IMG/VR virus record: IMGVR_UViG_2548876940_000005
Coordinates: 1 to 6,482 of that record
DNA from: a virus
Lineage: Duplodnaviria > Heunggongvirae > Uroviricota > Caudoviricetes
DNA length: 6,482 nucleotides
Reading direction: 5' to 3' (one strand)
Within the stretch, counting starts at the first letter, position 1. Every line of letters starts with the position of its first letter. The position numbers were made by a program, and so were the translations under genes. Below the pieces are notes generated by a model. The model was not told the DNA's origin and did not search any database. It saw nothing but the letters and a program-made list of their open reading frames with translations. This document shows, piece by piece, positions 5,705-6,482 of the stretch.

Positions 5705-6058
5705 TTATCGTCGCCGGTTAACTGCGGGTGGTTGACCACGGTTGAGCCAGAGATAACAGCTGCCCCCGTCATCCGGAGAAACACGATCCACCCAGAATAT
5801 CTCACCATTAATGGTCAGCGTGTCACCACGCCGCACGGCACGAACCGTATCCGTCCGCACAAATAATGACGGGCTGCTTCCTTCAATACGGACCCCGCTA
5901 CCGGCAAACCCCAGCGACTCCGGATCGTCAAAAACCCCCTGAACTTCGCTGCCACACTGTGCCCCCGAGGTGAACTGCGCACAGAGCCCCATCACTTCAA
6001 CAATCGTGCTGTCCACCCCGGCGAGGGCAGCATCAAAGGCATTCTGAAAATCACGCAT
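5705..6058 (-). CDS. FII: Head-tail joining protein FII
   Basis: 117-aa ORF (MRDFQNAFDAALAGVDSTIVEVMG...GEIFWVDRVSPDDGGSCYLWLNRGQPPAVNRRR), the same length as lambda gpFII and near-colinear with it, with a near-identical C-terminus from memory. Position between FI and Z. Confidence 0.9.
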   Translation of the reverse strand: MRDFQNAFDAALAGVDSTIVEVMGLCAQFTSGAQCGSEVQGVFDDPESLGFAGSGVRIEGSSPSLFVRTDTVRAVRRGDTLTINGEIFWVDRVSPDDGGSCYLWLNRGQPPAVNRRR

Positions 6059-6434
6059 GCTCAGCCGTTCCGTGCTGTATCATGGCTGTCGCCAGTGGTA
6101 ATGGCACCAGAACACGCATGCCCCGGTACGTCAGTTCAACGGGACGGCCTGTCTCCGGGCAATACCCCATCACATGCAGGCATTTCCGCACACGGACCGC
6201 TTTAACATCATCCGTAGCATCAGTGTTGTGCAACTGCTCACCATCGTCTGTGTGATTTTGCTCAGGCCCGCTCTCATCACCAGGCATAATGCCCTCCCGG
6301 GAAGCAGCAAGCTCCTCTTCCCACTCAGACACACGTTGCGCAATATCCGCAGCACTCCCCGCCATATCCGCCTCGCGCCCCAGCAGGCCAGCCAGTTGAC
6401 GAAGACGTTTCTGATTTTCTTCTTTTGTTGCCAT
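6051..6434 (-). CDS. FI: Putative DNA-packaging / head assembly protein FI (divergent allele)
   Basis: Assigned by position (between the end of the capsid gene and FII) and by architecture: a helical N-terminal region (MATKEENQKRLRQLAGLLGREADMAGSAADIAQRVSEWEEEL), an acidic low-complexity linker (PGDESGPEQNHTDDGEQLHNTDATDD) and a small C-terminal domain, as described for lambda gpFI. The sequence does not closely match lambda gpFI as I recall it. I prefer the ATG at 6434, which has an AGGGGG Shine-Dalgarno 5 nt upstream, over the GTG at the window edge used by the ORF track. Confidence 0.6.
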   Translation of the reverse strand: MATKEENQKRLRQLAGLLGREADMAGSAADIAQRVSEWEEELAASREGIMPGDESGPEQNHTDDGEQLHNTDATDDVKAVRVRKCLHVMGYCPETGRPVELTYRGMRVLVPLPLATAMIQHGTAEHA

Positions 6435-6438
6435 ATCA

Positions 6439-6477
6439 GCCCCCTGTGAAAAAAGACACGGGGGCATTTCGCCCCCG
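6439..6477 (-). promoter_or_regulatory. Two mutually exclusive GC-rich RNA hairpins in the leader of FI: the upstream one is followed by a U6 tract, the downstream one occludes the FI Shine-Dalgarno
   Basis: Minus-strand RNA 6477..6439 reads CGGGGGC-GAAAU-GCCCCCG-UGUC-UUUUUU-CACAGGGGGC. The central GCCCCCG can pair with the upstream CGGGGGC (7 bp, 5-nt loop, followed by UGUCUUUUUU) or, extended by UG, with the downstream CACAGGGGGC (9 bp with one bulged A, 8-nt loop), which contains the FI Shine-Dalgarno. Base pairing was checked by hand only; function is not established. Confidence 0.35.
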
Positions 6478-6482
6478 CTCAC

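What the first reader, a model, noticed from the sequence alone, without database searches (positions are those of the whole stretch)
6439..6482. Alternative hairpin switch in the capsid-gene / FI intergenic leader
In the roughly 44-nt leader of FI, a C-rich element (GCCCCCG, 6465..6459) is flanked by two G-rich partners. Pairing with the upstream CGGGGGC (6477..6471) gives a 7-bp GC hairpin followed after 4 nt by UUUUUU (6454..6449), which resembles a weak intrinsic terminator in the direction of late transcription. Pairing with the downstream AGGGGGC (6445..6439) instead buries the FI Shine-Dalgarno in a 9-bp stem. Only one structure can form at a time. A stop codon for the upstream gene is available either at 6481..6479 (which would leave a ~44-nt gap, close to the ~41-nt E-FI gap I recall for lambda) or at 6438..6436 (1 nt before the FI ATG). 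Ribosomes finishing the capsid gene could therefore decide which hairpin forms and so set FI translation relative to the highly expressed capsid protein. This is a hypothesis, not a described mechanism as far as I know.
Basis: seen in the sequence. Interest (0 to 1): 0.5.

Follow-up and report, generated by a model that had tools for sequence, protein, structure and literature searches.

The report
Terminator-like hairpin after capsid gene
The flagged sequence is an ordinary, evolutionarily conserved terminator-type RNA hairpin that sits just after the major capsid gene of a phage-21-like prophage, and the proposed second hairpin that would switch off the next gene (FI) is real on paper in this particular allele but is not conserved in close or distant relatives.

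Summary
The window's minus strand is the late operon of a phage-21-like lambdoid prophage. In every relative it is a TAA just off the window (virtual 6488..6486), which gives a 51-nt spacer.

Hairpin H1 (6478..6458, -17 kcal/mol, then GUC+U6) is under selection:
- 198/198 pair cells are kept in 25 distinct leaders.
- All one-sided changes are to G·U, and there is one compensatory G-C to A-U change.
- Sequence-unrelated hairpins occupy the same position after E-family capsid genes in about 20 classes (lambda, phi80, N15, Chi and others).
- The N15 GenBank record already annotates its counterpart as a "putative rho-indep. transcription terminator".

The alternative helix H2 (6465..6457 with 6448..6439) hides the FI Shine-Dalgarno. 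In this allele it is nearly isoenergetic with H1 (-16.8 kcal/mol). However:
- Uncompensated G-to-A changes weaken it to -10.6 kcal/mol or worse in about half of the closely related leaders.
- It has no counterpart in other classes.
- A ribosome at the true stop barely reaches H1.

Verdict: a known kind of intra-operon terminator or stabiliser hairpin. The switch is an allele-specific by-product with a small residual chance of being functional.

The parts
6458..6478 (-). H1, the conserved terminator-type hairpin. 5' arm 6478..6471 (GCGGGGGC), loop 6470..6466 (GAAAU), 3' arm 6465..6458 (GCCCCCGU).
   Evidence: -16.8 to -17.3 kcal/mol. Flagged by the terminator scan. 198/198 pair cells kept in 25 distinct leaders, with one compensatory change. 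It is the RNAalifold consensus.
6449..6457 (-). U-rich tail after H1: GUC spacer (6457..6455) then U6 (6454..6449).
   Evidence: Nearly invariant in the 21-like class. 6 of the first 8 nt after the stem are U.
6439..6448 (-). 3' strand of the alternative helix H2 (CAC-A-GGGGGC). It contains the FI Shine-Dalgarno AGGGGG (6445..6440).
   Evidence: H2 pairs 6465..6457 with 6448..6439 at -15.6 to -16.8 kcal/mol. This strand varies at 5 of 6 SD positions among relatives without compensation.
6051..6434 (-). FI (DNA-packaging protein) coding sequence. ATG at 6434..6432.
   Evidence: Pfam PF14000, E = 1.3e-13. The same start is annotated in relatives.
6479..6482 (-). First four bases (GUGA) of the part of the capsid-FI spacer held in the window. 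The capsid stop TAA and the next 3 nt (TCC) lie just beyond the window end (virtual 6488..6483).
   Evidence: All 111 distinct contexts of this class read GTGAAATAA + (T/G)CC + G(T/G)GAG.

Best explanation
The element is a conserved intrinsic-terminator-type RNA hairpin (H1: 8 pairs, GAAAU loop, then GUC-U6). It sits 7 nt downstream of the TAA stop of the major capsid gene, in the 51-nt capsid-FI spacer of a phage-21-like late operon.

Shown here:
- The helix is under purifying selection for pairing.
- A hairpin at this position is a near-universal feature of E-family capsid genes, even where the sequence is unrelated.
- The equivalent stem-loop in N15 is already annotated as a putative rho-independent terminator.

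Inferred:
- During Q-antiterminated late transcription the hairpin is mostly read through.
- It then folds behind the polymerase.
- It acts as a leaky terminator or insulator for RNA polymerase that lacks Q, and/or as a 3'-exonuclease barrier that protects the abundant head-gene (D, E) message.
- FI is translated from its own SD.

The second helix (H2) exists because the C-run of the hairpin's 3' arm happens to be complementary to the unusually G-rich SD (AGGGGGC) of this allele. It is an allele-specific by-product, not a conserved switch.
For: Selection on H1 within the 21-like class:
- 25 distinct leaders from 111 contexts keep 198/198 pair cells.
- All 8 one-sided variant cells are C-to-U opposite G.
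- There is one G-C to A-U double change.
- The RNAalifold consensus is H1 only.
- H1 stays at -11.7 to -17.5 kcal/mol in every allele.

Positional conservation:
- All 60 unique post-stop segments from 336 loci carry a hairpin of -5.2 to -21.7 kcal/mol (median -13.8).
- These hairpins start 0-17 nt after the stop, and 83% beat 95% of shuffles.
- Lambda has AUGGCCC-UUCG-GGGCCAU.
- N15, phi80, Aeromonas PhAER-5, Chi, Xylella Bacata, Vibrio K245, Pseudomonas SS2019XI and Rhodobacter RcAqua all have one, at capsid identity down to 24%.
- Lambda and N15 differ by A-U to G-C at the stem base, and a G·U intermediate is found in lambda-like contigs.

Prior annotation and literature:
- NC_001901 (N15) marks stem_loops described as 'putative rho-indep. 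transcription terminator' between D and E and between E and FI.
- PMC8022706 describes an intra-late-operon terminator at the end of the procapsid module of phage L. It proposes partial termination, or blocking of transcription that starts without antitermination.
- PMC9163698 notes that weak terminators balance expression in T7 and LUZ7.

U-rich tails: I counted these by eye from the sequences printed. At least 5 U in the 8 nt after the core stem occurs in about 10 of 20 classes. My own binomial figure for chance is about 3% at 25% U.

Against H2 as a designed element: (see the rival explanation).
Against: - No transcript 3' ends, termination assays or RNA half-lives were available, so the function of H1 is inferred.
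- The proximal U-tract is interrupted (UGUC before U6), and about half of the classes lack a U-rich tail. Termination therefore cannot be the universal role.
- A canonical terminator also lies between D and E (lambda GGCCGC-CUGU-GCGGC+U7), although E is needed in amounts equal to D. This argues that such sites are read through late in infection.
- From memory, not checked here: Sampson et al. 1988 (PNAS) reported roughly uniform late mRNA levels in lambda. That would limit any role in transcriptional polarity.
- In this allele H2 is energetically competitive, so some effect on FI translation cannot be excluded.
Confidence: 0.75

Rival explanations
1. H1 and H2 form a ribosome-sensitive switch. 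Ribosomes terminating on the capsid gene melt the 5' arm of H1. This frees the C-run to pair with the FI Shine-Dalgarno (H2), so FI translation is set relative to capsid translation.
For: In the window/phage-21 allele, H1 (-17.3 kcal/mol) and H2 (-16.8) are nearly isoenergetic. Equilibrium P(H2) is 0.03 when the leader is free. It rises to 0.63 if the mRNA is occluded through 6477 and to 0.98 through 6476. A GUG/CAC toehold (6459..6457 with 6448..6446) would allow strand displacement. The RBS opening cost rises from 6.2 to 17.5 kcal/mol if 13 nt after the stop are blocked. This exact allele is the best match in 779 of 1527 matching E. coli records, so it is not rare. In one natural allele (GAGUGGGGGC with an intact SD run), H2 at -16.8 is predicted to beat H1 at -13.9.
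Against:
- With 9 nt after the stop blocked (about +15 from the P site), the RBS opening cost changes by 0.3 kcal/mol. With the helicase limit (about +11), P(H2) stays at 0.03.
- H2 has 23 broken cells from uncompensated changes in the SD run: GGAGGC, GAGGGC, GGGAGC, GGGGGA, GGAGAC, GGGAAC and GAGGCC. The 5' arm G-run has none.
- H2 is -10.6 kcal/mol or weaker in 54 of 111 contexts while H1 is unchanged.
- In 17 other class representatives the blocked-state structure is unremarkable against shuffles (fraction of shuffles at least as stable 0.12-0.93). The change in RBS opening energy with 13 nt blocked ranges from -3.6 to +6.2 kcal/mol and has no consistent sign.
- Even for the window allele, 5.5% of composition-preserving shuffles do as well.
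- H1 forms first during transcription.
Confidence: 0.08
2. H1 is purely an mRNA decay or processing barrier. It would stabilise the 3' end of the segment that carries the highly expressed D and E cistrons, with no role in termination. The U-tract would be incidental.
For: The hairpin is universal, but a U-rich tail is present in only about half of the classes. It is absent in L011/L267, L185, L193, Chi, Bacata, K245, SS2019XI and RcAqua. Both abundant head genes (D and E) are followed by hairpins, whereas the tightly packed junctions of low-copy genes have none. Q-modified polymerase is known to ignore terminators (established knowledge on lambda and 21 Q).
Against: U-rich tails are enriched roughly 20-fold over chance, and they are canonical in several classes (U7 after GAGCC-GAAA-GGCUC; UUUUUCUUU after GGCGGGAUAUUCCCGCC). 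A pure exonuclease block does not need them. No decay data were available.
Confidence: 0.15
3. There is no function. On this view the hairpin is a chance palindrome or a recombination-junction relic in one of the few non-coding gaps of the operon.
For: The whole-window terminator scan found no excess of sites (5 found against 5.8 expected). The E-FI junction is a mosaic boundary, since FI diverges while the leader is kept.
Against: Pairing is kept in 100% of cells, with wobble-only and compensatory changes. Unrelated hairpins recur at the same position in about 20 classes.
Confidence: 0.03

Closest known systems
Stem-loops annotated as 'putative rho-indep. transcription terminator' between genes 7/8 (D/E) and 8/9 (E/FI) of phage N15 (NC_001901), and the equivalent lambda and phi80 E-FI hairpins
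   Same: The position is the same: immediately after the E-family major capsid gene and before FI. The architecture is also the same: a 7-8 bp GC stem, a 4-5 nt loop and a pyrimidine- or U-rich tail.
   Different: The stem sequence is unrelated (GCGGGGGC/GCCCCCG here, GUGGCCC/GGGCCAC in N15). The C-rich strand is the 3' arm here, and that is what creates the extra complementarity to the G-rich SD. N15 and lambda have no comparable H2.
Intra-late-operon terminator at the end of the procapsid gene module of P22-like phage L (PMC8022706)
   Same: It is a predicted intrinsic terminator inside a single-promoter, antiterminated late operon, just after the capsid-assembly genes. Its role is stated as unknown, with partial termination or blocking of non-antiterminated transcription proposed.
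   Different: The capsid family (P22 coat) and the neighbouring genes are different. That element was also only predicted in silico.
T7 T-phi terminator downstream of capsid gene 10, and weak terminators that balance phage gene expression (recalled knowledge; general point in PMC9163698)
   Same: A hairpin terminator directly after the most highly expressed structural gene, with partial read-through into downstream genes.
   Different: T-phi acts on T7 RNA polymerase and has measured efficiency. Here the polymerase is host RNAP modified by Q, and nothing has been measured.
Ribosome-dependent alternative-hairpin attenuators (trp, pyrBI leaders) and SD-sequestering translational switches
   Same: Two mutually exclusive helices share one strand. 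One conformer is terminator-like and the other hides an SD. A ribosome is the proposed selector.
   Different: In true attenuators both helices are conserved and the ribosome stalling site overlaps one arm. Here only H1 is conserved, and the stop codon lies 7-9 nt short of the stem.

Membership tests
Intrinsic (rho-independent) terminator | GC-rich stem of about 5-14 bp with a 3-8 nt loop | tested here: met
   8 pairs (7 G-C plus G·U), 5-nt loop, -16.8 to -17.3 kcal/mol.
Intrinsic (rho-independent) terminator | U-rich tract immediately 3' of the stem | tested here: inconclusive
   GUC then U6, so 6 of the first 8 nt after the stem are U. It passes the scan's rule. The proximal positions are interrupted by G and C, which suggests a weak terminator.
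Intrinsic (rho-independent) terminator | Located downstream of a stop codon on the transcribed strand, in the direction of transcription | tested here: met
   It lies 7 nt after the capsid TAA in relatives. The reverse strand has no T-tract after the stem.
Intrinsic (rho-independent) terminator | Transcripts actually end there, or RNAP is released in vitro | not testable with these tools
   No transcript-end data could be found or computed. This needs Term-seq or single-round transcription with and without Q.
Conserved post-capsid-gene stem-loop of E-family (lambda-like) head modules | Stable hairpin within about 20 nt after the major capsid gene stop, before FI or the next head gene | tested here: met
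   Present in all 60 unique leaders and in 8 distant phages. Annotated at the same site in N15.
Conserved post-capsid-gene stem-loop of E-family (lambda-like) head modules | Pairing maintained by wobble or compensatory substitutions | tested here: met
   198/198 cells paired, with one G-C to A-U double change. Lambda A-U, G·U and N15 G-C occur at the stem base.
Alternative-hairpin translational switch or attenuator | Two mutually exclusive helices of comparable stability, one of which sequesters the SD | tested here: met
   -17.3 against -16.8 kcal/mol, sharing the C-run 6465..6459. True for this allele only.
Alternative-hairpin translational switch or attenuator | Both helices conserved, with covariation, in relatives | tested here: not met
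   H2 is 89.6% paired with 23 uncompensated breaks. It falls to -10.6 kcal/mol or weaker in 54 of 111 contexts. It has no analogue in other classes.
Alternative-hairpin translational switch or attenuator | A selector (ribosome) positioned so as to occlude one arm | tested here: inconclusive
   The true stop is 7 nt from the stem. At a +15 footprint only G6478 and C6477 are covered, giving P(H2) = 0.63 but a change in RBS opening energy of only 0.3 kcal/mol. At +11 there is no effect.
Rfam-described RNA families | Match at or above the gathering score | tested here: not met
   The best overlapping hit is RF02866 at 15.2 bits against a gathering score of 48, E = 2.7.

The most novel reading that the evidence does not exclude
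In the phage-21 allele, which is also the window's allele and is carried by hundreds of E. coli prophages, the near-isoenergetic H1/H2 pair might be a working translational 'anti-coupling' device. On this reading, each ribosome terminating on the very heavily translated capsid gene nudges the C-run onto the FI Shine-Dalgarno. FI output would then be held down in proportion to capsid translation. The AGGAGGC alleles would be a second regulatory morph with constitutively higher FI.
Probability: 0.08. Interest if true: 0.5.

Novelty: new member of a known kind. Interest (0 to 1): 0.2.

Why it matters
As it stands this is routine. It adds one more case, and a broad comparative survey, of the terminator-type stem-loop that follows the major capsid gene in lambda-like head modules. 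The role of that stem-loop inside antiterminated late operons is still described as unknown (PMC8022706).

The survey gives one useful pointer. The hairpin is universal across about 20 unrelated sequence classes, but the U-tract is present in only about half. A second such hairpin separates D from E. Together these suggest the conserved function is at the RNA level (segment stabilisation or insulation) rather than transcriptional polarity.

If the H2 switch were real, it would be a new way of setting the stoichiometry between a structural protein and a catalytic assembly factor. The comparative data argue against it.

Tried and rejected
- **Rfam.** A scan of 5900..6482 at E <= 10 gave only sub-threshold noise.
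- **Literature on this hairpin.** Searches for a described lambda or phage 21 E-FI hairpin or switch found nothing specific. The lambda ribosome-profiling paper and Sampson et al. 1988 are not held, so statements about uniform late mRNA levels rest on memory.
- **Lambda Hfq-sRNA preprint.** I checked it in case the hairpin was the 3' end of an sRNA. Its late-operon sRNAs (LPR2, 6S) lie near pR', not at this site.
- **Stop-codon read-through.** I considered a capsid-FI fusion, because the TAA, the spacer and FI share a frame with no stop, and there is an in-frame AUG in the H1 loop. I rejected it because natural 52-nt spacers break the frame.
- **Upstream start for FI.** The GTG at 6482 (the 143-aa ORF) is an artefact of the window end. 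Relatives and the Pfam alignment support ATG 6434.
- **RNase III site.** Rejected because the stem is only 8 bp.
- **Bidirectional terminator.** Rejected because there is no T-tract on the plus strand.

Full report
**Context**

The minus strand of the window carries a lambda-type late operon. It reads FI (6434..6051), then FII, Z, U, V, G, T, H and M.

- FI matches Pfam PF14000, and the upstream gene in relatives matches PF03864, major capsid protein E.
- The closest public relatives are E. coli prophages, up to 99.7% identity over 783 nt. Induced phages PhiR12_x and phage 21 also match.
- Phage 21's capsid-FI spacer is identical to the window's.

**Checking the observation**

- H1 pairs 6478..6471 with 6465..6458. 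It has 7 G-C pairs plus one G·U and a GAAAU loop, and it folds at -16.8 to -17.3 kcal/mol.
- H2 pairs 6465..6457 with 6448..6439. It has six G-C pairs, a bulged A6445, then G-C, U-A and G-C, and it folds at -15.6 to -16.8 kcal/mol.
- The two helices compete for the same C-run. The anatomy and the claim of comparable stability are therefore right.

Both proposed capsid stop codons are wrong.

- In every relative the capsid gene ends ...GTG AAA TAA. Then come TCC (rarely GCC) and the base that corresponds to window 6482.
- The stop is therefore at virtual 6488..6486, just outside the window.
- The spacer is 51 nt. TGA 6481..6479 is out of the capsid frame.

**Is H1 real?**

I collected 459 loci. 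They came from E-protein searches of GTDB genomes and IMG/VR, and from a pattern anchored in the flanking coding sequence.

Within the 21-like class there are 111 distinct contexts and 25 distinct leaders.

- On that alignment H1 keeps 198 of 198 pair cells.
- All eight one-sided variant cells are C-to-U opposite G, giving G·U.
- One lineage (L007 type) has a G-C to A-U double change.
- RNAalifold returns H1 alone.

Beyond this class, all 60 unique post-stop segments carry a hairpin.

- They start 0-17 nt after the capsid stop, at -5.2 to -21.7 kcal/mol (median -13.8).
- 83% fold better than 95% of shuffles.
- The stems are not related in sequence. Examples:
  - lambda: AUGGCCC-UUCG-GGGCCAU
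  - Providencia-type: GGCGGG-GAAA-CCCGCC
  - GGCGGGA-UAU-UCCCGCC
  - GAGCC-GAAA-GGCUC
  - Serratia-type: AGGGGCC-UAC-GGCCCCU
  - and others

Eight further phages whose capsid proteins are only 24-60% identical also have one. They are N15, phi80, Aeromonas PhAER-5, Chi, Xylella Bacata, Vibrio K245, Pseudomonas SS2019XI and Rhodobacter RcAqua.

The N15 record annotates its copy as a "putative rho-indep. transcription terminator". It annotates a second one between the decoration gene and the capsid gene. The window's relative and lambda also have a strong hairpin in the D-E gap.

**Is H2 conserved?**

No, on four counts.

- *Pairing.* On the same alignment H2 is 89.6% paired with 23 broken cells.
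  - The breaks are G-to-A or C-to-A changes in the SD run: GGAGGC, GAGGGC, GGGAGC, GGGGGA, GGAGAC, GGGAAC and GAGGCC.
  - None is compensated in the C-run.
  - The G-run of H1's 5' arm shows no uncompensated change.
- *Energy by allele*.
  - H2 is about -16.5 to -16.8 kcal/mol in 46 contexts.
  - It is -12 to -15 kcal/mol in 11 contexts.
  - It is -10.6 kcal/mol or weaker in 54 contexts.
  - H1 stays at -17.5 kcal/mol in most alleles.
- *Frequency in complete E. coli genomes.* The leader class occurs in 1,524 of 5,426 genomes. The exact window allele is the best match in 779 records, and a 1-3-mismatch variant in 715.
- *Other classes.*
  - I blocked the 5' arm in 18 class representatives and compared the resulting structure with composition-preserving shuffles of the RBS segment. 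The window allele sits at 0.055 and the others at 0.12-0.93.
  - The change in RBS opening energy when the mRNA after the stop is occluded has no consistent sign in the other leader classes (-3.6 to +3.0 kcal/mol). The two other 21-like alleles, L001 and L007, show +4.7 and +6.2.

The complementarity is what one expects when a C-rich terminator arm lies near a G-rich SD. Here the SD happens to be GGGGG.

**Could a ribosome flip it anyway?**

In the window allele the balance is delicate.

| mRNA occluded | P(H2) at equilibrium |
|---|---|
| None (free leader) | 0.03 |
| Through 6477 | 0.63 |
| Through 6476 | 0.98 |

A ribosome with the TAA in its A site covers the mRNA to about +15 from the P site, which is through 6477. 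Its helicase point at about +11 reaches only 6481. These footprint values are established knowledge that I did not test here.

At the +15 limit the predicted RBS opening cost changes by only 0.3 kcal/mol. The reason is that in the H1 state the U-tract already wobble-pairs with the G-run. The mechanism is therefore not physically impossible in this allele. It sits at the edge of the ribosome's reach, and evolution has not maintained it.

**Most likely function**

H1 is a terminator-type hairpin placed after the most abundantly expressed gene of the operon. Three points bear on what it does.

- A U-rich tail (at least 5 U in the 8 nt after the core stem) follows about 10 of the 20 hairpin classes. 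I counted this by eye from the sequences, and my binomial figure for chance is about 3%. Termination is therefore selected in many lineages, but not in all.
- A canonical terminator also lies between D and E, and these two proteins are needed in equal amounts. Q-modified polymerase ignores terminators (established knowledge). These sites must therefore be largely read through during late infection.
- The literature on the analogous element in phage L says the role is unknown. It proposes partial termination, or stopping transcription that begins without antitermination (PMC8022706). Weak terminators are known to balance expression in T7 and LUZ7 (PMC9163698).

From these I infer two roles that can coexist:
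- an insulator or leaky terminator for polymerase that lacks Q;
- after read-through, a stable 3' hairpin that protects the D-E message from exonucleases.

None of this was measured.

**Verdict**

The feature is an ordinary member of a known and already annotated kind. Interest is low.

Noticed in passing
L004:1909-1971 (D-E gap of the 99.7% relative, outside the window); L005:378-438 (lambda); L460:363-387 (N15): The gap between the decoration gene (D) and the capsid gene (E) also carries a strong hairpin. In the relative it is UCAGGCCACC-GCGG-GGUGGCCUGA at -19.4 kcal/mol, z = -3.4. In lambda it is GGCCGC-CUGU-GCGGC+U7. In N15 it is annotated as a putative terminator. Both abundant head genes are therefore bracketed by terminator-type hairpins.
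   Followed up: partly
window 6482..6432 minus strand (plus virtual 6488..6483): The capsid TAA, the whole 51-nt spacer and FI share one reading frame with no further stop. An AUG (6467..6465) in the H1 loop is in frame with FI. This is probably chance, since natural 52-nt spacers (the L198 and L059 alleles) break the frame.
   Followed up: partly
L461:1436 (phi80, NC_021190 position 7196): The phi80 record starts its FI homologue at a GTG that lies in the 5' arm of the post-capsid hairpin (GUGGCCC-UGUC-GGGCCAC), 9 nt after the capsid stop. An AUG with a GGAG SD lies 36 nt downstream and gives MTEKEKLIA, which resembles lambda and N15 FI. The start is probably mis-annotated.
   Followed up: partly
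L053 / L322 allele (IMG/VR contigs); alignment A1 row L053: One natural allele combines a weakened H1 (GAGUGGGGGC, -13.9 kcal/mol) with an intact SD G-run, so H2 (-16.8 kcal/mol) is predicted to be the more stable helix. This would be the best natural test case for whether H2 ever forms.
   Followed up: no
L383, L340 alleles (alignment A1): Three contexts have one C missing from the C-run (GCCCCG) opposite an unchanged GCGGGGGC arm, which bulges H1 (-11.7 kcal/mol). This could be homopolymer sequencing error or real variation.
   Followed up: no
window 6457..6439 minus strand: In the H1 state the model pairs GUCUUUU (6457..6451) with AGGGGGC (6445..6439), mostly through G·U wobbles. The FI RBS therefore already costs about 6 kcal/mol to open, even without H2.
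   Followed up: partly
window 6051..6434 compared with phage 21 / lambda-like records (one search hits H7-H17): Matches to many phages split into two pieces, with the middle of FI unaligned, while the capsid end, the spacer and FII stay similar. The capsid-FI spacer therefore sits next to a mosaic (recombination) boundary inside FI.
   Followed up: no
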